Notes: generated by a model not told the origin, from the letters alone. Shown: positions 3,492 through 26,804, counted from the first letter of the stretch. The stretch is 52,328 nt of DNA from an uncultured Clostridia bacterium (GCA_947626235.1 CANQRI010000001.1:1-52328); one strand, 5' to 3'. A program made the numbers and translations.

Positions 3492-3574
3492 TTTTAAATT
3501 TTAAATTCTTAATATATAACTTAAAACATATTCAATAAATTAATTTATTTTTATACGACACACTTTTAAATCAT

Positions 3575-5332
3575 TTAGCTTCCATTCATTAAACTAATTG
3601 ACTCATACAAATTATATTTTTCTCTTGCCATAGTAGTAAAATATTTTTCTCTTACTTTTTTAAATTGTTCCTCTTTTATTGTATTACTTGTAGGTTCTCC
3701 ATATTCATTTAAAATTGTAATTTCCCCATCTATAAATTCATCTAAATTATATAAACCTCCAACATTTACTATACATTCATAGCAATATAAATATGGTGTT
3801 GTATTATCAGCCTGTTGAGGCATAAAATATACTGTATTTCCATTAGATACATCTACCTTTTGCCTTGCTATTTGCAATTTGGTATATGCTCCCATTATTT
3901 TTATGTTTTCATTATTTTCTGCTTCTTCTATTAAATGTTTGCAATTTGGTTTATGATATGTATACTTGTCTATTCCATCTACTGTTTCCTTTGTTAATAT
4001 AACTATTGAACCTTCGCTTATAAATTCTTTATTTTGATTATTTGAAATTACACAATAATTATTATACATTTTTGTCCCTATTGGTAAGCCTTGCATATAT
4101 GTAGTAATGCATACTTCTGTATATATTTTTTCCCAATCCTCTTCAGTTAATTTTGGTAATACATATTCATAGCCACTTGTTGACTCTGCATTAAAATTAG
4201 CAAGTGATGCAATTAAACTTGTTTCTAATCTATTTCTCATTATAGCTCTTCTATGAGTTTCAAATATTGATGATGACTTTTCAGGATCATTTGTAGTACT
4301 ATTAAATTCAAATATTTTTTGATATTTTCTTATATTGGAATCTGGATCTACTTCATATGTATTATTAGTTTCAAATTCGATTGTATTTCCATTTTCATCT
4401 ATAGCATTCTGCTCTGTTATAGAGCCTAAATTATCTTGTACCCATTTTGAAAATTTATATGCTTCTATATAGTAATTAATTGCACTTCTATTTGCATTCA
4501 TTGTACTAGCTGCATAATTTATTGTATCTATATTATTTGCTGAAACCGGCGTCTTTTCAAAATTTTCATACCAGAAATATTGATGTTGAACTTCATCCCA
4601 ATAAACCTTTCTATTATTATAAAAAGTATATGGATATGTTCCCTTCGTTGTTGTAATATTTCCTGTTGTAGTATCTCTTTGTTTAATTATAAGTGTTTCA
4701 CTTAAATTTTCAAACCCAATATCTAAACCTTTATATTTTATATTTGTAATAAAGTTTTCGCGTCCAGTATTTATATAATTTATAGTAGTGCTATCTATAT
4801 TAGATGGATTTATTAAAAAACCCGTTTTTGTTACATAACTTCCATTTACCATTCCATATACAGTTATTGCATTATCTAAAGTATAATTAATTACACAGTC
4901 TATATTATCCTTTTTATATCTACAAGAATAATAAATATATGGCTGTAATCCATACTCATATTCATTAGCATTTCGCGTATTTGCATATCTTCCATATACA
5001 TAGTAGCCATCATATAATGTATTTACAATTACAGGAGTATAACTCCTTAATGTATCTGCACTGATATTTATACTTGAACTTAACGAATCATAAAAAGTAT
5101 TTATTTCTGCCTCTATATCTCTTATTTTTGAATCACTAACTGAAGAATATCTATTATTTACTGTATTTAATTGAAATGCTTTTATTGCATCATAAGTAGC
5201 ATTCATAAGTTTCATATTATAATCAGACTGCAAAGTAATAGTTTTTACTTGAGAGTCTAAATACACACTCATTATGAATGTTATTGGAACTATCATAACA
5301 ATAAATATAACAATTAAATGTTGTAACTTCAT
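3575..5332 (-). CDS. Large N-terminally anchored protein, last gene of the filament operon (function unknown; candidate tip or adhesin component)
   Basis: The ORF-track TTG start at 5359 lacks an SD. The ATG at 5330-5332 (MKLQHLIVIFIVMIVPITFIM) follows GAGAGG by 9 nt. It has a single N-terminal hydrophobic helix, then about 560 aa rich in N/Y/T with several Cys pairs. Confidence 0.6.
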   Translation of the reverse strand: MKLQHLIVIFIVMIVPITFIMSVYLDSQVKTITLQSDYNMKLMNATYDAIKAFQLNTVNNRYSSVSDSKIRDIEAEINTFYDSLSSSINISADTLRSYTPVIVNTLYDGYYVYGRYANTRNANEYEYGLQPYIYYSCRYKKDNIDCVINYTLDNAITVYGMVNGSYVTKTGFLINPSNIDSTTINYINTGRENFITNIKYKGLDIGFENLSETLIIKQRDTTTGNITTTKGTYPYTFYNNRKVYWDEVQHQYFWYENFEKTPVSANNIDTINYAASTMNANRSAINYYIEAYKFSKWVQDNLGSITEQNAIDENGNTIEFETNNTYEVDPDSNIRKYQKIFEFNSTTNDPEKSSSIFETHRRAIMRNRLETSLIASLANFNAESTSGYEYVLPKLTEEDWEKIYTEVCITTYMQGLPIGTKMYNNYCVISNNQNKEFISEGSIVILTKETVDGIDKYTYHKPNCKHLIEEAENNENIKIMGAYTKLQIARQKVDVSNGNTVYFMPQQADNTTPYLYCYECIVNVGGLYNLDEFIDGEITILNEYGEPTSNTIKEEQFKKVREKYFTTMAREKYNLYESISLMNGS

Positions 5333-5361
5333 TTGTTTTAACCTCTCTATATTAAACAAGA

Positions 5362-5411
5362 CAGTTTTAAATTCAATACATCTAATAATTTAGATGTTAA
5401 ATTAAAAACTG
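5362..5411 (-). promoter_or_regulatory. Intra-operon extended hairpin
   Basis: CAGTTTTAAATT...ACATCTAA-TAAT-TTAGATGT...AATTAAAAACTG forms an imperfect palindrome between the fifth MEN gene and the 585-aa gene. The minus-strand RNA would be followed by UCUUGUUU. Confidence 0.3.
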
Positions 5412-5438
5412 CCCCCTTTTCAAATATTATTATAGTAT

Positions 5439-5963
5439 TTATCTATTTCCATTTACTGTAACTATGCCACTATCTTGTGCTGCAATTTGTGATGCATCAT
5501 TTCCTGCAAGTGAATAAAAGAAACTTCTTAAAAGATCTGCTATTGTTTGATTTGTATTTTTTACACTAACAACAACTCTATCTCCTTCTTTTAACACTAT
5601 TTGGTTATTTTTTGCTAATTCATCTTCTACTTGAGCCGTATATAAAACATAATATGTATTTTCACCTATTTTTGTAATTTCCGTTTGAGTTGTTTTTACA
5701 CCAGGGTTTTCATCTAGTATTTGTAATGTAATCTCTGGTTCAACAATTAGACCACCTGAAGAAGCTGAACTAATAAATTGTGTCCAATCACTTTGCGTCA
5801 ATTTTCCAGTTGTTCTGACTTTATCTACTAAATCATTTGTAACCGTTTGCAAAGCTAATTGAGATATATCGTCATTTCTTTCAGATAGGGACATTAAAGG
5901 AAATACAAATAATAATACTGCAGCTAAACCTATAACTACAACAACAATTAATGTATTTTCCAT
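5439..5963 (-). CDS. MEN-family pilin-like protein 5
   Basis: The true start is probably the ATG 9 nt after AGGAGG, giving MENTLIVVVVIGLAAVLLFVFPLMS. The track's TTG start abuts the SD. It has a hydrophobic N-terminal helix and a soluble C-domain. Confidence 0.6.
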   Translation of the reverse strand: MENTLIVVVVIGLAAVLLFVFPLMSLSERNDDISQLALQTVTNDLVDKVRTTGKLTQSDWTQFISSASSGGLIVEPEITLQILDENPGVKTTQTEITKIGENTYYVLYTAQVEDELAKNNQIVLKEGDRVVVSVKNTNQTIADLLRSFFYSLAGNDASQIAAQDSGIVTVNGNR

Positions 5964-6015
5964 AATAATCAACCTCCTATTTCTTAAAAATTTCTCAAAT
6001 TACTTTATCTTCAGA

Positions 6016-6822
6016 TTAATTGTTAGTTATTAGAGTATATGTTATTACTCTTTTCTTATTTTTTCTTAATATACTTGTAGTTTCTCCATCAACTGTTATT
6101 GTGGTACCTGAAGCTTCTACTTCTCCGCTTTCGTCACGCTCATATATGTATTCTCCAAGTTCTTCTACAAATTTTGGATTGTTTACATTTCCACCATTAC
6201 TTTGTATTAATCTTGTAATTCCATCATATTTAGTATTTCTAGAAGCATTGCCATCAGGAGATACAAAAGTATCTCCATTTAAGAAACAATCTATATTATG
6301 CTTCATATCACTTTGCTTTCCAGACCATGGTTCACGCCTTTTTATTTCTTCGTCCACGTCAAATGAACAAATATCATAAATTCGATTATCAGTTGCTGAT
6401 ATGTCACCCCAATAATTTTGCCATCTATAATCTCCCCAAAGCACTCTACCAGAATATGTTGCTTTATAAGGAGATTTTGACCTGTACAAAATTAAGTTTC
6501 CATTGTTTGCACCACTATATGTAACTTCTCCTGTTTCCTTGTTATAAGTACCTACTTTAAATATTACTGTATAATTTTCTCTATAATATTTGTATAATGT
6601 TGGTATTACTGTTTCTAACCCAACAACTCTTTTTTGGTATTTTGACATAACTTCACTATCATCATAAGTATAGTAATCATAATAATTTGTTTCATCTTGC
6701 ATTTCTACAACTGCATCTGATGTAGATTTTGCTTGTGTAAACATTACCATACTAATTGTTAAAGCCATTCCAAATACAATAACAGCAAACGCTATTTTTA
6801 AAGCTTCTACAGCATTTTCCAT
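6016..6822 (-). CDS. MEN-family pilin-like protein 4
   Basis: MENAVEALKIAFAVIVFGMALTISMVMF N-terminus, AGGAAG SD, and a 240-aa Y/W-rich C-domain. Confidence 0.6.
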   Translation of the reverse strand: MENAVEALKIAFAVIVFGMALTISMVMFTQAKSTSDAVVEMQDETNYYDYYTYDDSEVMSKYQKRVVGLETVIPTLYKYYRENYTVIFKVGTYNKETGEVTYSGANNGNLILYRSKSPYKATYSGRVLWGDYRWQNYWGDISATDNRIYDICSFDVDEEIKRREPWSGKQSDMKHNIDCFLNGDTFVSPDGNASRNTKYDGITRLIQSNGGNVNNPKFVEELGEYIYERDESGEVEASGTTITVDGETTSILRKNKKRVITYTLITNN

Positions 6823-6850
6823 ATTCTTTTCTTCCTATTCTAGGTTTGGT

Positions 6851-7324
6851 TTATTTAGTACCTGCTAAATCTCTAACATGAATTGCACATACTAAATTAC
6901 TATATTTATCATATTGAACTGTAACACTATATGTTTTTCCTGATTTTATCTGTGATTTCATATCTACTGCTGATTTTATATATTTTTCTGGATCTTGTTC
7001 ACCATCACTACCTGCTTCTCCTGAATTCTGATCATCTTCAAAGTCATCACCCTCATCAATATATACTTGTCTTGTAACATCATCCTTGTTTTGTGCATTG
7101 TGTTGTCTTACAACTTCACATAAAGTTAATACTCTAGAACCTTTTACTGATGAACCTGCATATTTTGTAAACTGATCATTATATTGTTGCACCTCAAATT
7201 GATCTAATTGTGAAGTAGAATCAACATTAGATGTTTGCATAAATACTGCCATACCTAAACCTATAATTAATACCGCTAATATTATTGCTCCTGCGATAAT
7301 TAGAGCTTTTGACGCATTCTCCAT
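6851..7324 (-). CDS. MEN-family pilin-like protein 3 (smallest; candidate major subunit)
   Basis: MENASKALIIAGAIILAVLIIGLGMAVF N-terminus and a GGGAGGA SD. KA/LI fits an archaeal class-III-type cleavage motif ([KR][GA]/[LI..]). Confidence 0.6.
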   Translation of the reverse strand: MENASKALIIAGAIILAVLIIGLGMAVFMQTSNVDSTSQLDQFEVQQYNDQFTKYAGSSVKGSRVLTLCEVVRQHNAQNKDDVTRQVYIDEGDDFEDDQNSGEAGSDGEQDPEKYIKSAVDMKSQIKSGKTYSVTVQYDKYSNLVCAIHVRDLAGTK

Positions 7325-7377
7325 AATAATTTCCTCCCTTGTTTTTTATATATTAATTAAAATTTAAAAATTAATAA

Positions 7378-7818
7378 CTACATTTGTTCAATAAATAGAC
7401 TTTTTACGGCCTTTGTTTTTTCGTGATACTCTATGTTTGTACATTTAAAAGAAATTGCTCCAAAATTTTTTACAAATTCTATCGAACCCTGCCTTGCAAT
7501 GTTTTCCATTCTATATATAAATTCTTCATCATCCTTTCCTTTAAACTTTACTGTAATTATTATAGAATTTGTATCATTTTCTTGATATTCACCCTTTTCG
7601 TTTTTTGCAACCTCATTTTTTTCGTTTAAGTCTATTGTTTTATTAATTATTGAGATTATATCTGTTCCTAGCACCTCTACATTGTAATATGATTCGTAGT
7701 CTGAATTTACTTTTTGTAATTCTCTTAATTTACTTTGATAAACATTATTACAATATACAACTGCTGTTATTACTATAATCGCTATTATTATAAATGATAT
7801 TATTATCTTTTTCAACAT
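7378..7818 (-). CDS. Small N-terminally anchored protein in the filament operon
   Basis: MLKKIIISFIIIAIIVITAVVYC TM helix followed by about 120 aa of soluble domain. AGGAGG lies immediately upstream, so the start may be the TTG one codon in. Confidence 0.55.
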   Translation of the reverse strand: MLKKIIISFIIIAIIVITAVVYCNNVYQSKLRELQKVNSDYESYYNVEVLGTDIISIINKTIDLNEKNEVAKNEKGEYQENDTNSIIITVKFKGKDDEEFIYRMENIARQGSIEFVKNFGAISFKCTNIEYHEKTKAVKSLFIEQM

Positions 7819-7889
7819 AACCTCCTATATTTTATTATATCACTTTTATTAGTATAATTCAACTTTTTTAGCTTTTATTATCTATTTTT

Positions 7890-8471
7890 CTAATTTATTG
7901 GTGTAATTTTCATATATTTTATTCTATTTGTATCTGCACTAATTCGTATATTTTCCACAACACATTCGTAATATTTAGTTTTAGCTACCATTTTCCCTGT
8001 TGTAGGATCTGTAGTTTGTATTATTGAATTATCTTCTATAAACTTTATTTTATCACTATCACTTTTATTTTCAAAATAATTATATCTTTCCTTTTTACTA
8101 TTTTCCACATCTATTCTTACATAATTTGTTGCATCAGAATCTCTATCATCCAATGTATAACCACTATTTACATCATAAAATCCATAGTTTGTATTATTTT
8201 CTTTTGCACAATTTGCTATTGTAACTATGTCATGAGCAGTAATTAATACTCGTTTTGATTCTAATTCCTCATCAGTCATATCATCACTTAAATAACTTAC
8301 ATATCTTAAAAAGTTATCATTAAATTGACTATCTTTCGTAGCAGCCATTTTTTTTTGCGCATTTTCCGAATATTCAGAAAATATATTAAAAAGTGTAATT
8401 CCTACAGTAATTACCATAACCCCAAGTAATATAGATGCTGCCATTATTAATGCTTTTGATGCATTCTCCAT
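7890..8471 (-). CDS. MEN-family pilin-like protein 2
   Basis: MENASKALIMAASILLGVMVITVGITLF N-terminus and an AAGGAAAGGAA SD. Confidence 0.6.
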   Translation of the reverse strand: MENASKALIMAASILLGVMVITVGITLFNIFSEYSENAQKKMAATKDSQFNDNFLRYVSYLSDDMTDEELESKRVLITAHDIVTIANCAKENNTNYGFYDVNSGYTLDDRDSDATNYVRIDVENSKKERYNYFENKSDSDKIKFIEDNSIIQTTDPTTGKMVAKTKYYECVVENIRISADTNRIKYMKITPIN

Positions 8472-8488
8472 TTTTATTTCCTTTCCTT

Positions 8489-9247
8489 TTAGTTTGTAGT
8501 TGCTTCCTTGAAACTCATTTCGCTTACTCTTCCATTTAAATCATATTCTACATTTGTACAAGAAAAATATTTTGCCCTAAATGATGTAAGTGCGGAATTA
8601 AGTGCTGTATAAAGTTTTATATCTTTTTCTACTGCCTCTACTCCTCCAGATAATCCATCAACTTTCATTGCTTTATTGTATTGATCAATCAAATCTTTTG
8701 TATCCCTATGTAAATTCATATTTGCATTTATTTGATTTTGGTATTGAATTTGCAAATCTATTAATGTATCTATTGGTTTTCCCCTTGCATTATATGTTGT
8801 TTCAATATTTGATATTTTATTTTTTATACTATTTAAAGCATTAGTTAATTTATCTACACTATTTGGTGCTTTTACAGTATATGTGCCTTTTTTTATATCA
8901 TAATTTCTGCCATCACTTTCATCGTACCCTAAACTAGTTAATGTTATTTCATCTTCTATTGTAATATGTAGCTCAATTGGATCATACTGTTTGTCTTCAT
9001 TTGCCTCCATTATATTATAGTCTTCTGCTCTATTTATAATAGATACAATATCACTTCCATATAAAACTCTCTTGTCAAATTGTTCAAACCTTTTATTATA
9101 TTCTAATATATCTGCAAGCTCTTGTTCTCTTTGTTCTTCAGCTTTAGACTCATTCATTCTATTAAATGCCAACACTACCAAACCTATTACTAATAAGCTT
9201 ATTAGAATTTCACCTGCTATCAAAAGTGCTTTTGATGCATTTTCCAT
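8489..9247 (-). CDS. MEN-family pilin-like protein 1
   Basis: MENASKALLIAGEILISLLVIGLVVLAF N-terminus and a GAGGAA SD. The first 23 nt are nearly identical to those of the genes starting at 8471 and 7324. Confidence 0.6.
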   Translation of the reverse strand: MENASKALLIAGEILISLLVIGLVVLAFNRMNESKAEEQREQELADILEYNKRFEQFDKRVLYGSDIVSIINRAEDYNIMEANEDKQYDPIELHITIEDEITLTSLGYDESDGRNYDIKKGTYTVKAPNSVDKLTNALNSIKNKISNIETTYNARGKPIDTLIDLQIQYQNQINANMNLHRDTKDLIDQYNKAMKVDGLSGGVEAVEKDIKLYTALNSALTSFRAKYFSCTNVEYDLNGRVSEMSFKEATTN

Positions 9248-9291
9248 TTTTCCTCATTCCTTTCATCTAGTCTAAAGCATGTATATTTATA

Positions 9292-11370
9292 CTACATTGA
9301 AGATAATGTATTAAATGAATCAGTCATACTTGTTAATCCTATAAATACCAATGGAACAATTAAATAGCCAACAAATAATACTACCATAGGTGCAAAACCT
9401 ATTCCTTTTCCTATCATACCTTTTTTAGAAATTAACCTTTCATTTGATTCCTTTCTTTTTGCTTGATAATAGTCTCTTTCTGTATCTAACTCATCAAATG
9501 CATCCTTAATTGGTATTTTTTCAACTGCAGATTGAAGACTTTGAATTATACGTATAAAATCTTCATATGTTACATCTTCTTTCATTGCCTCTAATGCTTC
9601 CCAAGCACCACTTTCATAGTTATTTATACATTTACTTAATGGGTCTTTAAAGATATTGGCATATCTTTCAAGCCATTCTAGTATGATTTCAACATTAACC
9701 CTTTCTATTCTCATAAGCATAAGTATTATTGTTTGGAATTGCATTACTTCGTCTTCCATTTCTAGTTGACGCATTTTTGTTTGGAATATTAACATAAGTA
9801 TTGGTGCCATATAAGCAATCATAGCAATTACCATTGCTCCTAACACTTCTACCCAACTTAAATATTCACTATTTACAATTCCTATTTTTCCTATAACTCT
9901 TTCTGCTGCTTTTTCTATTTCAGCATCTTTAGCATGCGAATAAGTATCATTTATTCTTCCACTCTTCATTGCTGCAGCAATTTTATCTTGTTTTAAATTT
10001 GCCTCATTTTTAAATGCATTTATATAATCATTATCCGACTGTGTTAGTTCCATGGCACTTTTTTGCGCCTTTTCAGTCATCGCGCCTATAATGTCATACG
10101 TTGTTGTAGGATCTGTATAAACATTATTAATTGTTATTTGATGCAGTTGATTAAACAAGAATAACGAAACAAAAAACGATACAATACACAAGGTCAATCT
10201 ATTAACATAAATCCATTCAATTTTGTCTTTACAAGCTGCATCTTTCATTTGTTTCTTTATTTTTCTGTTTTCTTTAGTTCCCTCTTTTGGTATAAACAAA
10301 TCTACTATTTTCTTTACTGGTTTTATTCTATATAATTTCTCTTGCCATGGATTTTCAGTATTTTTTGTGTTCATAGATGTTGAACCATTATCTTTTAATT
10401 TTCTAGTTAATATGTAACATACAAATGTTAATACTAATAATAATATTTGTACTAACATTCCGTCCTTTCCTTGATAGAATGATGCTGTAAAGCTAAATTG
10501 TGATACTGCCCAATTTTTAATTGGCTCTATTGCAAGCATTGGCACTATTGCAATTACTGATAAACTTTGAAATACATAATTTAATTTATCTCTTTTTAAT
10601 ATTTCAAGTTGCATTTCTTGAGTAATATTATTTAAATTTTTTAAGTATAATGATGCACCATCAACTTTTCTATCGCCAAACTCTTTTGTAAGGTATGATA
10701 CTCCTGCAAACTCTTTTAAGTAACTATTTGGAGCTATATCATAATATTTTTCTAGTTCTGATTCTGGATCATTTGATATTAATACTTCATATATCTTTTC
10801 TGCTTGTCTTGACATTTCTGGGTTATCGTCGTCTTGGGCTGTTTGGTATATTGCTTCCTCTACCATGTTAAACTCATTGTAGGCATGTCTTATTTGTGAA
10901 AAGAAATGTATTTGTTGTTTTAACAAGTTGTTATCAATCTTATCTACCATTCCATCTATTACTGTATCTACCATAAATACTTCAAATATTAATAATATGC
11001 ACATTAATAATAGATTTTTGCTAGTTAATACTATTATTCCAATAGTTAATGGAATTATTATTAACAATGCTTTTGTTAAAATTTTTGAAGCTCTATTTCT
11101 TGTTAAATATTCATCGTCTAAATTTATTATTTCAAGCCTTCTTCTCAATTTTAGTATATATCTTTTTAAAAATGGTGTTTTTAAATAAAACATATACAAT
11201 TTTTGATACATTACTTCCATTGAGAAACTAGACTCTTTTGTTCCAGCTTGTAATTGATTTATATATTTTTTTTCTTTATTGTTTTTATTTATATAAATAT
11301 ATGCTATTATTATTGCTACAAGTAGTGCTGCTGCACCACCCATCATATATAGTAATATATCTTGTGACAT
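9292..11370 (-). CDS. Polytopic membrane protein resembling a fused TadB+TadC (two T2SSF-like modules)
   Basis: 692 aa with about 7 TM segments. Two cytoplasmic helical domains are each followed by TM helices, and each matches the T2SSF pattern by eye (for example EKIYEVLISNDPESELEKYYDIAPNSYLKEFAGVSYLTKEFGD, and FKDPLSKCINNYESGAWEALEAMKEDVTYEDFIRIIQSLQSAVEK). Confidence 0.5.
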   Translation of the reverse strand: MSQDILLYMMGGAAALLVAIIIAYIYINKNNKEKKYINQLQAGTKESSFSMEVMYQKLYMFYLKTPFLKRYILKLRRRLEIINLDDEYLTRNRASKILTKALLIIIPLTIGIIVLTSKNLLLMCILLIFEVFMVDTVIDGMVDKIDNNLLKQQIHFFSQIRHAYNEFNMVEEAIYQTAQDDDNPEMSRQAEKIYEVLISNDPESELEKYYDIAPNSYLKEFAGVSYLTKEFGDRKVDGASLYLKNLNNITQEMQLEILKRDKLNYVFQSLSVIAIVPMLAIEPIKNWAVSQFSFTASFYQGKDGMLVQILLLVLTFVCYILTRKLKDNGSTSMNTKNTENPWQEKLYRIKPVKKIVDLFIPKEGTKENRKIKKQMKDAACKDKIEWIYVNRLTLCIVSFFVSLFLFNQLHQITINNVYTDPTTTYDIIGAMTEKAQKSAMELTQSDNDYINAFKNEANLKQDKIAAAMKSGRINDTYSHAKDAEIEKAAERVIGKIGIVNSEYLSWVEVLGAMVIAMIAYMAPILMLIFQTKMRQLEMEDEVMQFQTIILMLMRIERVNVEIILEWLERYANIFKDPLSKCINNYESGAWEALEAMKEDVTYEDFIRIIQSLQSAVEKIPIKDAFDELDTERDYYQAKRKESNERLISKKGMIGKGIGFAPMVVLFVGYLIVPLVFIGLTSMTDSFNTLSSM

Positions 11371-11389
11371 GTTTTATTTCACCTCTATC

Positions 11390-13355
11390 CTATGCTTGAT
11401 TTAATGGTTTTCTTCCTCTTCTTTTTGGTTGCATATCGCTATCTTCTTTTTCTTCATCTTCATATCTTGCTACTTTCATTCCCCAATTTCTTTCTATGAA
11501 TTTAATAAAATCTTCTGCATCTGCATCATCCATATTGTTTAGCATTTCTCTAATGTTGTGGTCAGTTATTCTATTGGTTAATACATACTCTCCATCATGA
11601 TACTCTAATATGTTTTGATATCTATATAATTCTCTATTAGTTGTTTTTGTAAAATAATATGTAGCATTGTCTATAAATTTATCTAATTTTCCTTCTATTG
11701 TTTTTTCTTTTCTATGATCAAATGTATATTCATTTTTTTGCTCTACTGGTATACATTCAGTTACTCTTTCTATGTATCTTCTTCCTCTAAAGTCTTTTAT
11801 TAAGTGTATATCAAAATTCAATACTTGTACAACTTGCTCTTCAGCTGTTCTTTCATCTTTGAAAACTCCTGCTCTTAACATTGAGTTACGAAGTGCTGTT
11901 ACTAAGTCTGGAAAAGTTTTAGCGTGGTGAGTAAATAATGTAAATTTAGATGCAACTTGTGCAGATTGAATCATCCAAGATGCAACGGGGTCTGTTGCAA
12001 CCTCACCTATGATATTAACAGAACCATCGGTTTTCTTTTGAACGTCCAAACAGTCTTGTCCAGATACTGTTTCAGTTTCACGCATTGATAATATATTTCT
12101 TGTTGGATATATTTTTCTTAAGTGTAACTCAAATGCAGTTTCTGTAATACGAAGGTTCATTGTTTCGTATATATTTTCTATCATCGCCATAAGCATTGTT
12201 GTTTTTCCGACATCCTTGCTCTCCTGTAAGTGATATAATTCTTGCACCTTTTACTAAATATTTTAATAATTCAATTGCTTCTTCCTTTCCAGGGAATCTA
12301 ATAATTTGCTCTAATGTTGCACGCTTTACGTCGAATTTTCTTACAAAGAACGCCCATGTTTCAGACATACTTGGTCTTACAACAACAACACGAGAACCAT
12401 CTTTCATTTCATTAATTTTATAACCATTAGTATCTGATAATTGACCTGGGTTATTATATTTATAAATATTTTGACATACTCTTTTTAATTCTGCTTCTGA
12501 TCCAAAAGATAAAAACTCTAAACGTATAGATTTACCTTGGAACATTATCCAAATACTGTCGCAGGCACGTGGAACTTTATGATCTAGCATTTGGTCTATA
12601 TAATCTCCATCTGTTTGCGCAACTTGGCTTAAAAAGCTTTCTGGTAATCCAGATACACCACCTGAAATACCATCTATATTCATATCTCTTATTTCATCTA
12701 TTGTACTATATCCTTTATAATGTTGATATATTCTTTGTACTACTACATTTAATTTATCTTGGAAAGTTAACATTAAATTTTCTTTTTCATATATCTCATC
12801 TATTTCACTACTTGTTATTACATATGATGGTTTAGCTTCACCTTCAACATATTTTAATCTTGCTAAATCATATTTCTTAATTATTTCAGTTAATGCTTCA
12901 TATCCAAACTCTTGCTTGTACATATATAATATAATTTCAAATTTATCTTGAGCTGTTAAAAGTGATGGTATATCAAATGGAATTGCTTTAGAAACATTTA
13001 ATTCTGTAACTCCATATTCTTTTGACAATAAATCATATATTAATTCTTTTATATATTTTTTATCATTAACATCTCCATAAGTACAACCTTTTAACGCCTT
13101 TTTTAATTCATATTTCTTATTTTTTCTTCTTTTTAATTCCTCTTCAGATAAACCTATATCATAAAGATTTATTTTTGTTATTTCATCTAATCTCTTTTTT
13201 ATAAAAGCAGTCATAACTTCTAATGTATATGTTTTATCATCTACATTTATTTGTTCTTCAACTTTTGCATCTTGCTTTTTCTTTAAGTTTCTTATAATTA
13301 AAAATCCTGCCAAAACTAAAACTGCTAATATTAATATTATGTTTAAAAACTGCAT
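11390..13355 (-). pseudogene. CpaF/TadA (VirB11-class, T2SSE) secretion ATPase, frameshifted in Walker A (ORF pieces 12129-13355 and 11390-12247)
   Basis: The upstream piece ends ...GARIISLTGEQGCRKNNN*. The downstream frame reads ...SKDVGKTTMLMAMIENI. Removing 1 nt near 12207-14 restores TGEQG(V/C)GKTT, a canonical Walker A. The downstream piece also has DGSVNIIGEV (Walker B region) and FTLFTHHAKT (His box). The total span of 1966 nt equals 3n+1. Confidence 0.8.
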
Positions 13356-13376
13356 TTTTTGGCTCCTTTCTTAAGG

Positions 13377-14216
13377 TTATGCTTTCATTTGTAATTCTTG
13401 TATTTTAAATAATAAATCTTGTGACATTCTTTGTGTTTCTTTTATAAATGTTGCATTTCTATCTGTTTCTTTAGTACTTCTAAATCTTAAAAAGAACTCT
13501 GCAACCTTCGAATCTGATGTTGCTTCAAAAAATAAAGTATTGTATGGTATTACTGATATTTCCTTTTTTAATCTTATATATCTTGTTACATTTTTTGCAT
13601 TGTATTTTGAAAACTTATCATATCTGCCTATATTTAGCATTATATTGTTTTTCTTAAAAAAGTCATTTGTTTGTGTTAAGTTTATATAATCATCTATTAT
13701 TGCTAATTTTTGAGTTATATTTATTACTATTACATCTGCCATTTGTAAAATTTTATTTGCTTGTGCTGGTGGCATTTTTTTTGATATATCAACAAATACT
13801 AAATCATAATCTTTGTTGGCAACTTGTATAATTTGTGGATACAGATTACATATAGATTTGTATTCTTCATAACTTTTCGTATTACTAGAACATAATACAT
13901 CAAATCTATCTTTAAAAACTACTCTTGCATAGTTTGACACTATTGAATTTGAAGTTTTATTACTTGTTACTATTTTTATTAAACCTTCAATTCCTGATTC
14001 AAAACCAACTTGACTATTATTTGTTAGATTTTGGGCTATGCTGTTTTGTCTTGACATACTCCAAAAGCAATTTTCTAAAGTTTTATTATTAAATTCTGTA
14101 CTTATATCCAATATTTTTTTGTTGTGTTCTATTGACATGTAAGTACTTAATGCTACCATTGATAGCGTTTGTCCTGTTTCATTACTTTCTCTACTCCAAA
14201 ATGCTATAATAGACAT
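13377..14216 (-). CDS. ParA/MinD-fold protein with degenerate Walker A (TadZ-like) 2
   Basis: MSIIAFWSRESNETGQTLSMVALS occupies the place of xKGGxGK[ST]. It has a DLVFVDIS Walker-B-like segment. Its ATG lies 1 nt after the upstream stop, which suggests translational coupling. Confidence 0.55.
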   Translation of the reverse strand: MSIIAFWSRESNETGQTLSMVALSTYMSIEHNKKILDISTEFNNKTLENCFWSMSRQNSIAQNLTNNSQVGFESGIEGLIKIVTSNKTSNSIVSNYARVVFKDRFDVLCSSNTKSYEEYKSICNLYPQIIQVANKDYDLVFVDISKKMPPAQANKILQMADVIVINITQKLAIIDDYINLTQTNDFFKKNNIMLNIGRYDKFSKYNAKNVTRYIRLKKEISVIPYNTLFFEATSDSKVAEFFLRFRSTKETDRNATFIKETQRMSQDLLFKIQELQMKA

Positions 14217-14217
14217 T

Positions 14218-14931
14218 CTATACTCCTCTTTCTATTCTTTTCATTATCTTTCTAATTTGTGGGTAACTTTCTTCTCCTGTTAATTGTGTAGCTATATACA
14301 TTAAGCCTTCTTTATACTGATTACTCAAATTTCTAATTCTAATTTTTTCTGCTTTTTGATTTTCATATATAACTGTTTGATCTCCTAATTCAAATGGCAT
14401 GTTGACTGTGCTTTGCTCATCCCACGTTACTTTGCATTCTCTAGTTATATAATTTAAATATTCGTTTTCTTTTTTAGTTGCATTTCTTGAAAATATTATT
14501 TTTGTCATATTTGTAGGTTCCTTAAATGCACTGAAAGTCATTATTCCTCTTTTTATTGAATATAAATCCAATGATGTTACAAAGTAATTTTTATCACATT
14601 TTTCTATTTCAAAGTTCACTGCCATATTAGGTGTATCTACATCTATTAATATATAATCGTAATTAATTGGTGAGCTTAATGGTATTCCTAAATATTGTTT
14701 TATATAATTATAATTTTGAAATCCAATTGCTATATCTATTCCTTCATATTGTGTAACATACATTCTTTCTGGTTTTATAGTTGGAATAGTAAATCTAGAT
14801 TTTTGTGTTATTGATGCATCTATAAATAAAACTGTATTTCCCATTTCTACCAACAATTTTGATATATATAGTATAAAATCTGTTTTTTCACATCCCCCTA
14901 TAAAACCTACTTTTTTCATTATAAATTTCAT
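14218..14931 (-). CDS. ParA/MinD-fold protein with degenerate Walker A (TadZ-like) 1
   Basis: KKVGFIGGCEKTDFILYISKLLVEMGNTVLFIDAS, where GGCEKT replaces GGxGKT, plus a YILIDVD Walker-B-like segment. Confidence 0.55.
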   Translation of the reverse strand: MKFIMKKVGFIGGCEKTDFILYISKLLVEMGNTVLFIDASITQKSRFTIPTIKPERMYVTQYEGIDIAIGFQNYNYIKQYLGIPLSSPINYDYILIDVDTPNMAVNFEIEKCDKNYFVTSLDLYSIKRGIMTFSAFKEPTNMTKIIFSRNATKKENEYLNYITRECKVTWDEQSTVNMPFELGDQTVIYENQKAEKIRIRNLSNQYKEGLMYIATQLTGEESYPQIRKIMKRIERGV

Positions 14932-15016
14932 TCCTTTCTTGCTTGAAGGTACTTTACTTACATGTAAGTATTTTATTCTTTATAAGTTACCTCCTCTTAT
15001 ATTGCAATTTATAATT

Positions 15017-15943
15017 TTACTCTCCTAGTGATTCCAAATAACTTTGTCTTTCATCTGCTGCTCTATCAATTTCTTCTTCTACTCCAGATGCTATGTTGTC
15101 TTGTGCATCATCTGGCTCATAACTATTTATTAATGGATCTAATGTACCTTGTCTTATTGCTATATTTCTATTATACAATGTAAATAATGCATTTTTTGCT
15201 TCTTGTAATATGTTTGGATCTGCAAGCATTAAATTTTGTGTAGAAGCTTTTGGTACAAATGTTGTTGTTGCAGCTGTTTGCATTCCTGGTTCTACATATT
15301 TTGTTACATATAACATTGAACCCTCTAATTGATATGCTTCTATTATTGCATTACTCATTACTAATATTTCAGCCTCTGTCATGTTTAGCCATAAAGTTGT
15401 TTCTGATTCTGTTCCTGAAACTGCTGGAATTTCAACTTTCTTTTTAGATATTACAATATAATCTTCTCCACTTGGTAAACGAAATCTTATATCTATAACA
15501 TCTCCTGTTTGTATTTGCGTCATCAGTCTTAACATATTGTATTCTTGCAATCTCATGTCATCTGTTGTTGCATTTTCACTTTCTGTTATCATATCTTCTG
15601 TTACTATTGTTCCTTTAGTTAAATTTATTTTAGCAATTAAATTTTCTTTAGGATTTCCATCATCATCATAAAACGCATCCATTGTTATTGCATTAGTTGG
15701 TATTGCTGAAGAAGCTATTTTTTGTGTTGTGAATAATTCTTCACTAATACTGTCTCCTGAATTTACATCTTCAGATAGCATATATACCTCTTTTAATGCT
15801 TTTCTTTCTGCCTCTCTTTCTTTATTAATGTTGACTAGTTGATATACTAAAAAGCCTATTATACTTCCTGTAATAAGTAATGTTACTAATACTCCTATTA
15901 TTAAATACATATTTGCTTTTCTTTGCATTGGATTCATTGCCAT
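15017..15943 (-). CDS. CpaB/RcpC-like pilus assembly protein (TM + SAF + RcpC-like)
   Basis: N-terminal TM (YLIIGVLVTLLITGSIIGFLV), a SAF-like segment (IAKINLTKGTIVTEDMI), GDVIDIRFRL, and a strong AAGGAGG SD. It is the first gene of the operon. Confidence 0.6.
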   Translation of the reverse strand: MAMNPMQRKANMYLIIGVLVTLLITGSIIGFLVYQLVNINKEREAERKALKEVYMLSEDVNSGDSISEELFTTQKIASSAIPTNAITMDAFYDDDGNPKENLIAKINLTKGTIVTEDMITESENATTDDMRLQEYNMLRLMTQIQTGDVIDIRFRLPSGEDYIVISKKKVEIPAVSGTESETTLWLNMTEAEILVMSNAIIEAYQLEGSMLYVTKYVEPGMQTAATTTFVPKASTQNLMLADPNILQEAKNALFTLYNRNIAIRQGTLDPLINSYEPDDAQDNIASGVEEEIDRAADERQSYLESLGE

Positions 15944-15988
15944 ATCTATATTCCTCCTTATATTTTACAGATTATCATTACTTATTTT

Positions 15989-16017
15989 ATTGTACAACAT
16001 TTTTCCCTATTAAACAA
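15989..16017 (-). promoter_or_regulatory. Candidate sigma-A promoter of the filament operon
   Basis: Minus strand reads TTGTTT, 17 nt, then TACAAT, about 45 nt upstream of the CpaB-like ATG. Chance matches are common in AT-rich DNA. Confidence 0.3.
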
Positions 16018-16092
16018 TATAAAACGTCATCTGTAACATAAAAATAATATTGTTGTAACACTAATGTAATATATGTTTTTATACATAATTTT

Positions 16093-16121: not shown

Positions 16122-16126
16122 TCTTT

Positions 16127-25706: not shown

Positions 25707-26804
25707 TTAAATATAATTTATTGCATTTTCTTCTGTTCTACTATCCAAAAATTCTTCTAATTTTTTAGTTACTCCTTCTATTTGCGTTCCTTTATAATAT
25801 TTAGTAACTACTACATTTATTTTAGGTTTTGCAGTTAAGTTTTCTTCATCATCTTCATATAAATCTCTTTCATCAGCTGGTACTTCCATTGATTCTATTT
25901 TTTGTTTTATATCATTCATAAAGTCTGCTACACCATTTACTTCTACACCAGAAAATGCTATTACAAATTTTGGTCCCATGTATCTTACAAATATATACTC
26001 ATCTGCAATATTATTTTTTATTAAATCACTTATTTGTGTAATTACTGCATTTCCTGTATGCCTACCTATGTTTTCATTTATATCTGCTATGTTTACAATT
26101 TTAAACATGCATATTGCAGATGTTGCATATACATCTATCAATCTTTTTCCCTCTGAATATAAATATTCTGCTGATTTCAAACCTGTAAATTCATCTGTTC
26201 TTACTATATTTTCTACTACGCCTTGTTTTTCTATAGACCTTAACGCAGATATTATATTATTCTTTACAACTTCCAATATTGTAGTATCTACATTATCAAA
26301 ATCATGAGGAATTCCACTTTCTATAATCCAATAACCAATGTATATGTTATCTATATATAAAGGAAAAAACATTGCTGATTTAGCTCTTCCAAATTCTAAT
26401 TTTTGGTATGGTAATCTTTCGCCTTCTCTATCTACTGTTATATACTTTGGCGTAGCTGTTTGTATACTGTCTTTAAATATTTCTTCTTTATGAAGATTTC
26501 TTAATGTATCCCAATGTTTTTGGTCTACATTTGTTGCCTTTATTGTATATTCTGTACCAGTATATACCACTATAGTAGAATATTTTATATCATATTTTTC
26601 TATTAGAATTTCATTTATTCTTTTTATTTTTTCATCTGCTGACTTTTCTTCACCTATTGTATCCATAAACTCTTGTAGCACATTTAAACTTGTTATTCTC
26701 TGGTTCACGTTTTTATATACATCTATTTTTTTATAAACAGACATATTATATACCATCAAAAAGCCAATTATTACTACTAATAGTATTATTACCGCTATTA
26801 TCAA
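25707..26804 (-). CDS. Membrane-anchored sensor-like protein with a degenerate GGDEF domain
   Basis: N-terminal TM and a GAF/PAS-like middle region. The C-terminus reads DEFTGLKSAEYL...FKIVNIADINENIGRHTGNAVI...FVRYMGPKFVIAF, so MGPKF replaces GGDEF. Confidence 0.6.
   Translation of the reverse strand: MIIAVIILLVVIIGFLMVYNMSVYKKIDVYKNVNQRITSLNVLQEFMDTIGEEKSADEKIKRINEILIEKYDIKYSTIVVYTGTEYTIKATNVDQKHWDTLRNLHKEEIFKDSIQTATPKYITVDREGERLPYQKLEFGRAKSAMFFPLYIDNIYIGYWIIESGIPHDFDNVDTTILEVVKNNIISALRSIEKQGVVENIVRTDEFTGLKSAEYLYSEGKRLIDVYATSAICMFKIVNIADINENIGRHTGNAVITQISDLIKNNIADEYIFVRYMGPKFVIAFSGVEVNGVADFMNDIKQKIESMEVPADERDLYEDDEENLTAKPKINVVVTKYYKGTQIEGVTKKLEEFLDSRTEENAINYI

What the first reader, a model, noticed from the sequence alone, without database searches (positions are those of the whole stretch)
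3575..15943. 13-gene Tad/Epd-like type IV filament operon with a non-canonical subunit set, between spoIVB and truA
Seen: thirteen co-directional minus-strand ORFs with gaps of 1-80 nt, nearly all with their own SD. The recognisable core has four parts. First, a CpaB/RcpC-like protein. Second, two ParA/MinD-fold proteins with eroded Walker A motifs (TadZ-like). Third, a CpaF/TadA/VirB11-class ATPase. Fourth, a 692-aa membrane protein that looks like two fused T2SSF modules (TadB+TadC). Downstream lie five paralogues sharing MEN(A/T)-hydrophobic N-termini, plus two more N-terminally anchored proteins. Three components of described Tad/Flp loci are missing. There is no 50-70 aa Flp pilin with G/XXXXEY; I also scanned the intergenic gaps and found none. 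I recognise no TadE/TadF-type pseudopilins. No A24 prepilin peptidase is present anywhere in the 52 kb. Inference: this is a divergent and possibly undescribed branch of the type IV filament superfamily in a spore former. Its function (adhesion, DNA handling or a sporulation-linked surface structure) is unknown.
Basis: partly seen in the sequence, partly recalled or inferred. Interest (0 to 1): 0.85.

Follow-up and report, generated by a model that had tools for sequence, protein, structure and literature searches.

The report
Published TANB77 Tad-like pilus gene cluster
This is a real 12-gene operon for a very divergent Tad-type surface-fibre machine of uncultured gut Clostridia. It was already described in 2024 as the "TANB77 pilus gene cluster", although how its odd pilin-like subunits are processed and assembled is still unknown.

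Summary
The block is real, but it has 12 genes, not 13. The ATPase is one gene split by a 1-nt insertion in its Walker A motif.

The core parts are:
- a CpaF/TadA-class ATPase;
- a 692-aa, 8-TM protein whose two halves match two separate genes at the TadB/TadC position in a Clostridium botulinum plasmid locus;
- a weak CpaB/SAF protein;
- two degenerate ParA/MinD-like proteins;
- seven bitopic pilin-like proteins.

No Flp, no recognisable TadE/F and no A24 peptidase were found.

It is not undescribed. The cluster is orthologous to genes 927-938 of the "pilus gene cluster" reported in 122 of 129 TANB77 species (Nat Commun 2024, PMC11680825). The last protein of that cluster stimulates dendritic cells through TLR4.

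Points I did not find in that paper:
- The pilin-like proteins start at an invariant MENASKAL, with no room for a classical leader.
- The module also sits on 35 large Bacillota plasmids.
- In this species the ATPase frameshift is conserved. The downstream frame is under purifying selection, and the 0-frame codon at the site is CGG, which is never used in the window. This suggests programmed +1 frameshifting.

No link to sporulation is supported. Novelty: already known. Interest: moderate.

The parts
15017..15943 (-). g1: 308-aa protein with an N-terminal TM helix and a SAF domain, CpaB/RcpC-like (published protein 927)
   Evidence: Pfam SAF E 0.015. NCBIfam TIGR03177 pilus_cpaB E 1.3e-6, 27.9 bits, below the 71-bit cutoff. 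Orthologues on plasmids are annotated as SAF domain proteins. Present in 81 of 86 loci.
14218..14931 (-). g2: 237-aa degenerate ParA/MinD-like protein (published 928, 'TadZ')
   Evidence: Pfam CbiA E 0.064. The family profile hits MinD in PDB weakly (E 0.015, N-terminal 30 residues only). The P-loop is reduced to GxxDKTD. hhalign to the MinD-like region of the 1070-aa protein gives prob 77%.
13377..14216 (-). g3: 279-aa ParA-family-like protein with no P-loop lysine (published 929, 'CpaE')
   Evidence: The family profile hits PDB 3ea0 'ATPase, ParA family' at E 2e-5, then Get3, ParF and Soj weakly. Consensus N-terminus is FWxxxxxxTGxT.
11390..13355 (-). g4: CpaF/TadA-class secretion ATPase, 654 aa once repaired, with an N-terminal TM helix and a family-specific N-domain of about 260 aa (published 930). 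The gene is interrupted by a 1-nt insertion.
   Evidence: Pfam T2SSE 26.3 bits against a 24.9-bit cutoff. PDB CpaF E 2e-10; the Walker A, Asp box, Walker B and His box all align. Homologues are uninterrupted proteins of 634-660 aa.
12207..12209 (-). Frameshift site in the Walker A motif: GGA TGT C GGA AAA. The 0-frame codon is CGG. Skipping C12209 restores LTGEQGCGKTT.
   Evidence: The same extra C is present in the window, L008 and L009. Downstream substitutions are 22 synonymous to 6 non-synonymous in the +1 frame, against 2 to 26 in the 0 frame. CGG is used 0 times in 10,043 codons of 25 window genes. All 80 other species lack the insertion.
9292..11370 (-). g5: 692-aa, roughly 8-TM all-helical platform-like protein (published 931, 'TadC+TadB')
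   Evidence: AF2 pLDDT 92. There are 1093 representatives at 50% clustering. hhalign: residues 61-291 match the C. botulinum pCBG 298-aa protein (prob 87-92%) and residues 342-677 match the pCBG 359-aa protein (prob 98%). No Pfam T2SSF hit in 70 members. No PDB sequence or fold match.
8489..9247 (-). g6: 252-aa MENASKAL pilin-like paralogue
   Evidence: hhalign g9 to g6: prob 99.7%. Starts MEN at the first possible start codon.
7890..8471 (-). g7: 193-aa MENASKAL pilin-like paralogue
   Evidence: hhalign g9 to g7: prob 99.8%, 144 columns.
7378..7818 (-). g8: 146-aa paralogue of the pilin-like family with a different N-terminus (MKK plus a hydrophobic stretch)
   Evidence: hhalign g9 to g8: prob 98.0%, 120 columns. 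Present in 79 of 86 loci. Substitutions between strains: 10 synonymous, 0 non-synonymous.
6851..7324 (-). g9: 157-aa candidate major subunit. The 25-residue N-terminus (MENASKALIIAGAILLSILIIGLGM) is nearly invariant and is followed by a fast-evolving alpha/beta domain.
   Evidence: All 120 homologues start MENAS, although overall identity is about 40%. AF2: helix 3-31, floppy linker, confident globular domain. No PDB fold or sequence match. Substitutions between strains: 6 synonymous, 14 non-synonymous.
6016..6822 (-). g10: 268-aa MENAVEAL pilin-like protein, related to g9 only through the N-terminal helix
   Evidence: hhalign g9 to g10: prob 96.4% over 48 N-terminal columns.
5439..5963 (-). 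g11: 174-aa bitopic protein of a separate, better conserved family (orthologues start MGD/MSD; ...VFPLMS motif)
   Evidence: 59% identical to the L001 and L004 orthologues (69% between those two), against 25-44% for the MEN proteins. Orthologues on plasmids. Not related to g9 by hhalign.
3575..5329 (-). g12: 584-aa N-terminally anchored large subunit, candidate minor or tip pilin (published 'pilin 938')
   Evidence: Orthologous to the last gene of the CAG:245 cluster. PMC11680825 reports a TadE/PilV-like fold for its N-terminal quarter and TLR4-dependent activation of dendritic cells. Plasmid orthologues are about 310-366 aa.
26839..30051 (-). Distal candidate component: 1070-aa protein with a CpaE/TadZ-like layout (N-terminal domain plus a MinD/ParA-like domain at about 783-950)
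   Evidence: BLASTP to the 546-aa protein encoded two genes upstream of the cluster ATPase in C. botulinum plasmid locus L011: 7e-11 for the N-terminus and 2.7e-6 for the MinD region. That plasmid protein hits NCBIfam MinD at 4e-6. Pfam CbiA E 8.5e-5.
25707..26804 (-). Distal candidate regulator: GGDEF-domain protein
   Evidence: Pfam GGDEF E 4e-10. BLASTP 2e-10 to the GGDEF gene that follows the plasmid module in L011. A GGDEF gene also follows the module in L007.

Best explanation
This is the chromosomal 'pilus gene cluster' of the uncultured gut order TANB77. It is a highly divergent Tad (type IVc)-like filament-assembly operon of a monoderm bacterium.

Inferred mechanism:
- A membrane-tethered CpaF/TadA-like hexameric ATPase (g4) docks on one 8-TM platform protein (g5). 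That protein replaces the TadB/TadC pair.
- ATP-driven movements of the platform extract bitopic pilin-like subunits from the membrane. The subunits stack through their near-invariant N-terminal hydrophobic helices into a surface fibre.
- g9, the small and fast-evolving protein, is the likely major subunit. g6, g7, g8, g10 and g11 are minor subunits. The large g12 is a tip or minor subunit exposed to the host.
- The SAF/CpaB-like g1 forms the extracytoplasmic collar. The two degenerate ParA-like proteins g2 and g3 (possibly with the distal 1070-aa protein) position or scaffold the machine, as TadZ/CpaE do.

The subunits have no classical class III leader. Either they are used unprocessed, or a 7-residue MENASKA leader is cut at a Lys-Ala site by a peptidase encoded elsewhere.

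In this species the ATPase is most likely still made, through +1 ribosomal frameshifting at an unused CGG codon.

What is shown: gene content, homologies, conservation pattern and synteny. What is inferred: the filament, the roles of the subunits, their processing and the recoding.
For: ATPase:
- T2SSE above the Pfam cutoff, and CpaF is the best PDB match with all catalytic motifs aligned.
- TadA family is the best NCBIfam hit.

Platform:
- The two halves are homologous to two consecutive genes that directly follow the ATPase in the C. botulinum pCBG locus. That locus also has an RcpC-like protein and 57-77-aa Flp-like pilins with a KKGG leader.
- PMC11680825 reports Foldseek similarity of the halves to TadC and TadB.

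Accessory proteins:
- g1 gives a weak CpaB signal.
- The g3 profile hits the ParA-family structure 3ea0 at 2e-5.

Pilin-like signature:
- The first 25 residues are invariant in 120 of 120 g9 homologues that are otherwise about 40% identical.
- There are five paralogues.
- The layout is TM helix, linker, then globular domain.

Conservation gradient typical of pilus systems (window vs L001/L004): ATPase 82-88% identity, TruA 77%, platform 68-77%, g11 59%, subunits 25-44%. g9 has more non-synonymous than synonymous changes between strains.

Distribution:
- Syntenic unit in at least 75 of 86 species and on 35 Bacillota plasmids.
- Published as a pilus cluster in 122 of 129 TANB77 species; orthology to that cluster shown.

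Recoding:
- The conserved extra C, purifying selection in the +1 frame, and absence of CGG from 10,043 codons.
- The 11 other genes are intact. The platform shows 64 synonymous to 7 non-synonymous changes.
Against: - Nobody has seen a filament. The published paper has no microscopy.
- The platform gives no T2SSF signal by Pfam in 70 diverse members, by an HMM against PDB, by Foldseek against PDB, or by hhalign against rhizobial TadB/TadC.
- The g9 model has a short N-terminal helix separated from the globular domain by a low-confidence linker, not the continuous alpha1 'lollipop' of classical pilins. It matches no solved pilin.
- There is no G(-1)/E(+5) motif, no Flp, no TadE/F by profiles, and no A24 peptidase in the window or within 10 kb of the cluster in about 86 species.
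- The ATPase gene is formally a pseudogene in this genome.
Confidence: 0.65

Rival explanations
1. The machine builds no long adhesive pilus. Instead it forms a short wall-spanning pseudopilus or contact apparatus used for cell-cell contact, mating-pair stabilisation or export of large surface proteins. This would resemble a T2SS pseudopilus or the accessory thin pilus of IncI plasmids. The chromosomal TANB77 copy would be a domesticated version of a plasmid module.
For: - The module lies on 35 large Bacillota plasmids.
- In Thermobacillus pTHECO01 it lies about 4-9 kb downstream of a T4SS coupling-protein gene and a replication-relaxation gene, across an inserted transposase.
- pBsph-type plasmids are reported as conjugative and also carry separate VirB4/VirB6/VirD4 homologues (PMC13239906 and PMC4363355).
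- Cell-wall hydrolase genes sit inside or beside the plasmid modules. Very large SLH and DUF5704 surface proteins follow them.
Against: - In TANB77 the cluster is chromosomal, sits at a fixed site next to truA, is inherited vertically across at least 80 species, and has no conjugation genes nearby.
- A small, rapidly diversifying major subunit fits an exposed polymer better than a buried pseudopilus.
- MOB-suite types all 35 plasmids as non-mobilizable.
Confidence: 0.15
2. In this particular genome the system is dead. The ATPase frameshift is a recent inactivating mutation that spread through the species, and the cluster is starting to decay.
For: - The 1-nt insertion breaks the P-loop.
- All 80 other species have an intact gene.
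- No substitution lies within about 85 nt upstream or 24 nt downstream of the site, so a recent recombination tract carrying the mutation cannot be excluded.
Against: - Two strains that differ at 3.5% of nucleotide positions share the insertion. Since they diverged, the downstream part shows 22 synonymous to 6 non-synonymous changes in the shifted frame.
- The other 11 genes have no stops or frameshifts. The platform is strongly constrained, with 64 synonymous to 7 non-synonymous changes.
- The 0-frame codon created by the insertion is CGG, the only sense codon never used in 10,043 codons, followed by the abundant GGA in the +1 frame.
Confidence: 0.15
3. The block is not a type IV filament system at all. 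A VirB11/CpaF-like ATPase works with an unrelated polytopic membrane protein, and the MEN proteins are ordinary membrane-anchored exoproteins.
For: No component other than the ATPase reaches any curated family threshold. The platform and the subunits have no PDB match.
Against: - The co-occurrence, in Tad gene order, of SAF/CpaB-like, ParA-like and CpaF-like genes with genes at the TadB/TadC position.
- The homology link to an Flp-bearing locus.
- Plain membrane anchors do not stay invariant over 25 residues while the rest of the protein drifts to 40% identity.
- The published structural matches to CpaB, TadZ, CpaE, TadB, TadC and TadE.
Confidence: 0.05

Closest known systems
TANB77 'pilus gene cluster', genes 927-938 of CAG-245 sp000435175 (Nat Commun 2024;15:10726, PMC11680825)
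   Same: Same 12 genes in the same order, with matching lengths. Every window gene has its orthologue in the Clostridium sp. CAG:245 scaffold (ATPase 84%, platform 68%, g11 58%). The flanks are the same (truA, DUF2651). The paper's annotation (CpaB, TadZ, CpaE, TadA, fused TadC+TadB, seven pilin-like proteins) matches what I found.
   Different: - This species carries a conserved frameshift in the ATPase gene.
- A search of the paper's text found no mention of prepilin, peptidase or N-terminal.
- The paper states that all cluster proteins except the ATPase have no or only a few homologues outside TANB77, whereas the module is also on 35 Bacillota plasmids.
Tad/Flp (type IVc) pilus systems, for example Caulobacter Cpa, Aggregatibacter Tad and the rhizobial plasmid loci L013 and L096
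   Same: CpaF-clade ATPase, a CpaB/RcpC-like SAF protein, ParA/MinD-like TadZ/CpaE-type proteins and platform gene(s) directly after the ATPase. Several minor-pilin-like genes lie in the same operon.
   Different: - One fused 692-aa platform with no detectable T2SSF signature, instead of TadB plus TadC.
- The ATPase has its own TM helix and an extra N-domain of about 260 aa.
- No 50-70-aa Flp with G/XXXXEY. The subunits are 146-584 aa with globular domains.
- No TadE/TadF signature, no TadV in the locus, and no secretin, as expected in a monoderm.
Split-platform Tad-like loci of Clostridium botulinum/C. sporogenes pCBG-type plasmids (L014)
   Same: The 298-aa and 359-aa membrane proteins are homologous to the N- and C-halves of g5 (hhalign prob 87-98%). 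An RcpC-like protein and a T2SSE ATPase lie upstream.
   Different: The pCBG locus keeps small pilins (57-77 aa) with a positively charged leader ending in KKGG. Its ATPase is 468 aa.
Archaeal Epd-type pili and archaella, the inferred ancestors of Tad (Denise et al. 2019, PMC6668835)
   Same: Pilins with globular domains and no conserved Glu5. The Lys-Ala just before the hydrophobic stretch (MENAS-K-A|LIIAG) fits the archaeal class III cleavage pattern [KR][GA]|hydrophobic, as I know it.
   Different: - The putative leader is only 7 residues with no net positive charge, and g10-type paralogues have Glu-Ala instead.
- No FlaK/PibD/EppA-type peptidase gene is linked.
- Phylogenetic placement of the ATPase was not done.

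Membership tests
Type IV filament superfamily | Hexameric secretion ATPase of the T2SSE/PilB/CpaF family | tested here: met
   Pfam T2SSE 26.3 bits against a 24.9-bit cutoff on the repaired protein. PDB CpaF E 2e-10; Walker A, Asp box, Walker B and His box align.
Type IV filament superfamily | Polytopic platform protein of the T2SSF (GspF/PilC/TadB/TadC) family | tested here: inconclusive
   No T2SSF hit in 70 diverse members. Nothing in the PDB by HMM or Foldseek. hhalign against thin TadB/TadC profiles is not significant, although the best alignments are collinear (P 0.004-0.017). The halves are homologous to two genes at the TadB/TadC position in pCBG. PMC11680825 reports Foldseek matches to TadC and TadB.
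Type IV filament superfamily | Pilins with a class III signal peptide: short positively charged leader, Gly at -1, usually Glu at +5 | tested here: not met
   139 of 152 MEN-family ORFs start M-E-N at the first possible start codon. There is no Gly(-1)/Glu(+5) and no G/XXXXEY. Only a possible 7-residue leader ending in Lys-Ala exists, and it is absent in g10-type proteins.
Type IV filament superfamily | Pilin architecture: highly conserved N-terminal hydrophobic helix followed by a variable exposed domain, present as several paralogues | tested here: met
   The first 25 residues are invariant or nearly so in 120 homologues, against 44% mean column identity. AF2 gives helix 3-31 followed by a globular domain. 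Five paralogues.
Type IV filament superfamily | Dedicated A24 prepilin peptidase | tested here: inconclusive
   None in the 52-kb window. A GxGDx[KR] plus multi-TM signature finds only the S. meliloti positive control in 1.9 Mb, which covers the window and 96 loci. The rest of the genomes could not be searched.
Tad/Flp (type IVc) pilus | Flp-type major pilin of 50-70 aa with G/XXXXEY | tested here: not met
   No such ORF in any frame of 3400-16200, and the gaps are at most 85 nt.
Tad/Flp (type IVc) pilus | TadE/TadF-type pseudopilins | tested here: not met
   No Pfam or NCBIfam TadE hit. hhalign of the g8, g9, g11 and g12 profiles against rhizobial TadE/TadG gives prob below 1%. The published Foldseek result suggests a TadE/PilV-like fold only for the N-terminal quarter of g12.
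Tad/Flp (type IVc) pilus | CpaB/RcpC and TadZ/CpaE accessory proteins | tested here: inconclusive
   g1: TIGR03177 E 1.3e-6 but far below its cutoff. g3 profile to ParA-family structure 3ea0 at 2e-5. g2 gives only a weak MinD hit. hhalign to the rhizobial CpaB and CpaE-like protein is not significant.
Published TANB77 pilus gene cluster (PMC11680825) | Twelve conserved genes in fixed order, with lengths of about 358/231/280/640/693/165/170/143/146/237/178/621 aa, and orthology to the CAG-245 reference | tested here: met
   ORF lengths in the CAG:245 scaffold L026 match the paper's Table 1 for all but the last gene, which is split into two ORFs in that scaffold (gene 7 is 177 aa against 170). 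Each window protein finds its positional orthologue there. Synteny holds across 86 loci.
Gram-positive conjugative T4SS | VirB4 ATPase, VirD4 coupling protein and relaxase encoded with the module | tested here: inconclusive
   None is evident next to the chromosomal cluster, but not every window ORF was profiled. On plasmid pTHECO01 a coupling protein and a replication-relaxation protein lie within about 9 kb upstream.

The most novel reading that the evidence does not exclude
This would be a type IV-like filament whose subunits are assembled without prepilin-peptidase processing. The subunits would be 'leaderless' pilins that enter the fibre with their native N-terminus (f)Met-Glu-Asn-Ala-Ser-Lys-Ala-Leu, with Glu2 playing the charge-neutralising role of the classical Glu5. 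That would break the rule that every type IV filament needs four universal parts: pilin, A24 peptidase, ATPase and platform.

A second novel reading, not excluded by the first: expression of the motor ATPase in this species depends on programmed +1 frameshifting at an unassigned CGG codon inside the P-loop.
Probability: 0.25. Interest if true: 0.8.

Novelty: already known. Interest (0 to 1): 0.4.

Why it matters
- The cluster is the signature locus of TANB77, a gut clade repeatedly linked to response to checkpoint immunotherapy. Its last gene product is reported to be immunostimulatory (PMC11680825).
- It would matter for that application, and for pilus biology, to know whether the cluster really builds a fibre, which protein is the major exposed subunit, and whether the subunits are processed.
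- The module also sits on plasmids of cultivable hosts (Paenibacillus, Lysinibacillus, Butyrivibrio, Clostridium). This gives a practical route to study a system whose natural hosts are uncultured.
- If the subunits prove to be unprocessed, the accepted minimal parts list of type IV filaments would need revision.

Tried and rejected
- Pfam and NCBIfam on all cluster proteins: only the ATPase passes a threshold.
- Pfam on 70 diverse platform homologues: no T2SSF hit.
- Foldseek of the AF2 models of g9 and g5 against the PDB: no match (best E 0.64 and 0.41).
- HMM searches of the g5 and g9 family profiles against PDB sequences: nothing.
- Internal repeat test between the two halves of g5: negative.
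- hhalign of g5 against rhizobial TadB/TadC and the Alicyclobacillus split proteins: not significant.
- hhalign of g1, g2, g3, g8, g9, g11 and g12 against the rhizobial CpaB, CpaE-like and TadE/TadG proteins and the pCBG small proteins: not significant.
- pXO16 'tip' conjugation locus as a relative: rejected. The platform has no Bacillus plasmid hit, and the literature describes pXO16 as a distant T4SS.
- Prophage origin: the platform has no hit in 50,697 phage records.
- Sporulation link: the adjacency to spoIVB is not conserved.
- Promoter and terminator scan: uninformative in this AT-rich DNA (86 promoter-like sites against about 100 expected).
- Sequencing error as the cause of the frameshift: rejected, because three assemblies representing two diverged strains share it in a non-homopolymer context.
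- A first genome scan with the platform alignment failed for lack of conserved stretches. The ATPase alignment was used instead.

Full report
**What is there.** The window is about 27% G+C. Between truA/DUF2651 (16127-17431) and spoIVB (2169-3491) lies an uninterrupted run of minus-strand ORFs. Gaps are 1-85 nt and Shine-Dalgarno-like sequences precede the starts.

The raw ORF list gives 13 ORFs, but two of them (12129-13355 and 11390-12247) overlap and are pieces of one gene. The DNA reads GGA TGT C GGA AAA. Removing C12209 yields a 654-aa protein with the Walker A sequence LTGEQGCGKTT. That sequence is found in 110 of the best 120 homologues, and all 80 related species carry an uninterrupted ORF with TGEQG[CS]GKTT. 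The cluster therefore has 12 genes, here called g1 to g12.

**The machinery genes.**
- *ATPase (g4).* The repaired protein just passes Pfam T2SSE (26.3 bits against 24.9). Its best solved relatives are the Caulobacter CpaF structures (E 2e-10), with Walker A, Asp box, Walker B and His box aligned across the frameshift. The best NCBIfam hit is a TadA-family model. It has its own N-terminal TM helix and a family-specific N-domain of about 260 aa.
- *g1.* It has a TM helix, a weak SAF domain and a weak CpaB signal (TIGR03177, E 1.3e-6, far below its cutoff).
- *g2 and g3.* Family profiles built from about 45 orthologues hit MinD weakly for g2 (E 0.015). For g3 they hit a ParA-family structure (3ea0, E 2e-5), followed by Get3, ParF and Soj.
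- *Platform (g5).* It is a confidently modelled all-helical protein with about 8 TM segments (pLDDT 92). The family is large, with 1093 representatives at 50% clustering and full-length relatives down to about 25% identity.

I could not show that g5 is a T2SSF protein:
- None of 70 diverse members hits Pfam T2SSF.
- Nothing appears in the PDB by HMM or Foldseek.
- No internal repeat is detectable.
- Profile comparison with rhizobial TadB/TadC is not significant.

However, the family profile matches two consecutive genes of a C. botulinum pCBG plasmid locus. The N-half matches a 298-aa protein (prob 87-92%) and the C-half matches a 359-aa protein (prob 98%). Those two genes directly follow a T2SSE ATPase, are preceded by an RcpC-like gene, and are followed by 57-77-aa pilins with a KKGG leader. 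This supports the reading of two fused modules at the TadB/TadC position.

**The subunit genes.** Seven genes after the platform encode proteins with a single N-terminal hydrophobic helix.
- By profile-profile comparison g6, g7, g8, g9 and g10 are paralogues (prob 96-99.8%). g11 and g12 are separate families.
- For g9, all 120 homologues start MENAS and the first 25 residues are invariant or nearly so, while the proteins are otherwise about 40% identical.
- Across 86 related loci, 139 of 152 MEN-family ORFs start M-E-N at the first possible start codon after a stop. There is therefore no room for a classical leader.
- No G/XXXXEY motif exists in any frame.
- The AF2 model of g9 has helix 3-31, a floppy linker and a confident alpha/beta domain, with no match to any solved structure.
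- One caveat on 'leaderless': MENAS-K-A|LIIAG fits the archaeal-type class III site [KR][GA]|hydrophobic, as I know it. Three of the four distant plasmid homologues examined keep Lys-Ala at the same offset (MSTNASKA|L, MGENARKA|L, MESPVVKA|I). g10-type proteins have Glu-Ala instead.
- No A24-like gene is present in the window. None lies within 10 kb of the cluster in about 86 species; a crude catalytic-motif scan recovered only the S. meliloti positive control. The rest of the genomes could not be searched.

**Conservation and distribution.**
- The ATPase has more than 7400 relatives in the protein database, the closest from gut metagenomes.
- A scan of one genome per GTDB species found at least 591 species with a relative. 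The best 80 are all uncultured gut Clostridia from humans, chickens, rabbits and ruminants, and include Clostridium sp. CAG:780 and CAG:245.
- The whole block is syntenic in 75-86 of 86 loci.
- Conservation follows the gradient expected for a surface-fibre machine (window vs L001/L004): ATPase 82-88% identity, which exceeds TruA at 77% and CdaA at 61-73%; then platform 68-77%, g11 59%, g1-g3 44-61%, and the pilin-like proteins 25-44%.
- The downstream neighbour is spoIVB only in some species, so a sporulation link is not supported.
- The platform has no phage hit.

**It is already published.** A full-text search found PMC11680825 (Nat Commun 2024;15:10726). That paper reports 'a stretch of 10-14 genes' conserved in 122 of 129 TANB77 species and numbered 927-938 in CAG-245 sp000435175. 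From AlphaFold2 plus Foldseek it annotates them as CpaB, TadZ, CpaE, TadA, TadC (first half) plus TadB (second half), and seven pilin-like proteins. Recombinant protein 938 activates dendritic cells through TLR4 and improves the anti-PD-1 response in mice.

The CAG:245 scaffold L026 has matching ORF lengths for all but the fragmented last gene, and each window protein finds its positional orthologue there. The finding is thus a further member of a described cluster. A search of the paper's text found no mention of prepilin, peptidase or electron microscopy. No other paper on it was found.

**What I found beyond the paper.**
1. *The module is not confined to TANB77.* The platform is encoded on 35 large plasmids (100-540 kb) of Paenibacillus, Lysinibacillus (pBsph type), Clostridium botulinum, C. 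argentinense and C. beijerinckii, Butyrivibrio proteoclasticus, Thermobacillus, Alkalihalophilus, Sporosarcina, Cytobacillus and Cohnella. The order SAF, ParA-like, ParA-like, ATPase, platform, small subunits, g11-like, g12-like is kept on three of the four plasmids examined; the C. botulinum locus L011 has one ParA-like gene between the SAF-like gene and the ATPase. Cell-wall hydrolases, SLH and DUF5704 giant proteins and a GGDEF gene are often nearby. On pTHECO01 a T4SS coupling-protein gene and a replication-relaxation gene lie within about 9 kb upstream. pBsph-type plasmids are reported as conjugative and also carry VirB4/VirB6/VirD4 homologues. A role in cell-cell contact is therefore a live alternative.
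2. *Two window genes about 10-14 kb from the cluster may belong to the system.* A 1070-aa protein (26839-30051) and a GGDEF protein (25707-26804) resemble proteins that flank the plasmid module in C. botulinum locus L011. The plasmid counterpart of the 1070-aa protein has a MinD-like domain, which is the CpaE/TadZ layout.
3. *The ATPase frameshift looks functional.* The extra C is present in the window and in two other assemblies (L008 from GCA_947593355.1, and L009). L008 and L009 differ from the window at 3.5% of positions in this gene, with no indels. Since the strains diverged, the downstream part has 22 synonymous and 6 non-synonymous differences in the +1 frame, against 2 and 26 in the original frame. 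The other 11 genes are intact in both strains, and the platform shows 64 synonymous to 7 non-synonymous changes. The 0-frame codon created by the insertion is CGG. It is the only sense codon never used in 10,043 codons of 25 window genes, and it occurs 8 times in 111,483 codons of the clade's g4 and g5 genes. The +1 codon is GGA, the most used glycine codon. A stalled ribosome at a hungry or unassigned CGG that resumes in the +1 frame would restore LTGEQGCGKTT. This is an inference; recent pseudogenisation is the rival.

**Verdict.** The gene count and the paralogue set need correction, the sporulation link is unsupported, and the cluster is already in the literature.

The most likely mechanism is a Tad-type assembly motor polymerising bitopic subunits through their conserved N-terminal helices (confidence about 0.65).

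Still open and of real interest:
- whether a fibre exists;
- whether the subunits are processed at all;
- whether the platform is a true T2SSF relative;
- whether this species recodes its ATPase gene.

Noticed in passing
window 12207-12209 (inside ATPase gene 11390-13355, minus strand): A 1-nt insertion in the Walker A motif is shared by three assemblies representing two strains. The downstream frame is under purifying selection. The 0-frame codon at the site is CGG, which is never used in 10,043 codons of the window. This makes it a candidate programmed +1 frameshift at a hungry or unassigned codon.
   Followed up: partly
window, 25 minus-strand genes; 86 related loci: CGG is the only sense codon absent from the sampled genes of this roughly 27% G+C genome. 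It is nearly absent from the clade's ATPase and platform genes (8 in 111,483 codons). It may be an unassigned codon, as reported, to my knowledge, for Mycoplasma capricolum.
   Followed up: partly
window 25707-30051 (minus strand): A 1070-aa protein with an N-terminal domain and a MinD/ParA-like domain, followed by a GGDEF protein. Both resemble proteins that flank the plasmid-borne version of the module in C. botulinum locus L011, so they may be distal parts or regulators of the system.
   Followed up: partly
L007, L010, L011, L012 and 31 further plasmid records: The same module sits on large plasmids of cultivable Bacillota: Paenibacillus, Lysinibacillus pBsph, Clostridium botulinum, C. argentinense and C. 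beijerinckii, Butyrivibrio, Thermobacillus and Alkalihalophilus. The published paper found no or only a few homologues outside TANB77 for all cluster proteins but the ATPase. These hosts offer tractable models.
   Followed up: partly
L014 (C. botulinum CDC_1436 plasmid pCBG, 62-68 kb) and L095 (Alicyclobacillus fastidiosus plasmid): Other Gram-positive Tad-like loci have an RcpC/SAF protein, a shorter T2SSE ATPase and two separate unannotated membrane proteins. In pCBG, tiny pilins with a KKGG leader are also present, and the two membrane proteins match the two halves of the window's 692-aa protein.
   Followed up: partly
window 6851-7324 (g9) compared with L008: Between two strains of the same species the candidate major subunit has 14 non-synonymous and 6 synonymous differences. 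Its neighbour g8 has 0 and 10. This suggests diversifying selection on an exposed protein.
   Followed up: partly
window 16127-16621 (minus strand): A DUF2651 membrane protein whose C-terminal tail carries repeated CCNCRNC-type cysteine motifs followed by an Asn-rich region. The gene is conserved directly upstream of the cluster in related species.
   Followed up: no
window 16093-16121: A perfect 12-bp-stem palindrome lies between the DUF2651 gene and the first gene of the cluster. It could be a terminator or an operator. On the coding (minus) strand it has no T-rich tail.
   Followed up: no
window 20320-21519 and 21766-22740 (minus strand): A protein with MrcB_N and NOV_C domains, which looks restriction-related, sits next to a protein with an acidic N-terminus and double zinc ribbons.
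   Followed up: no
window 18780-18854 (minus strand): The only tRNA gene in the window is tRNA-Glu with anticodon CTC.
   Followed up: no
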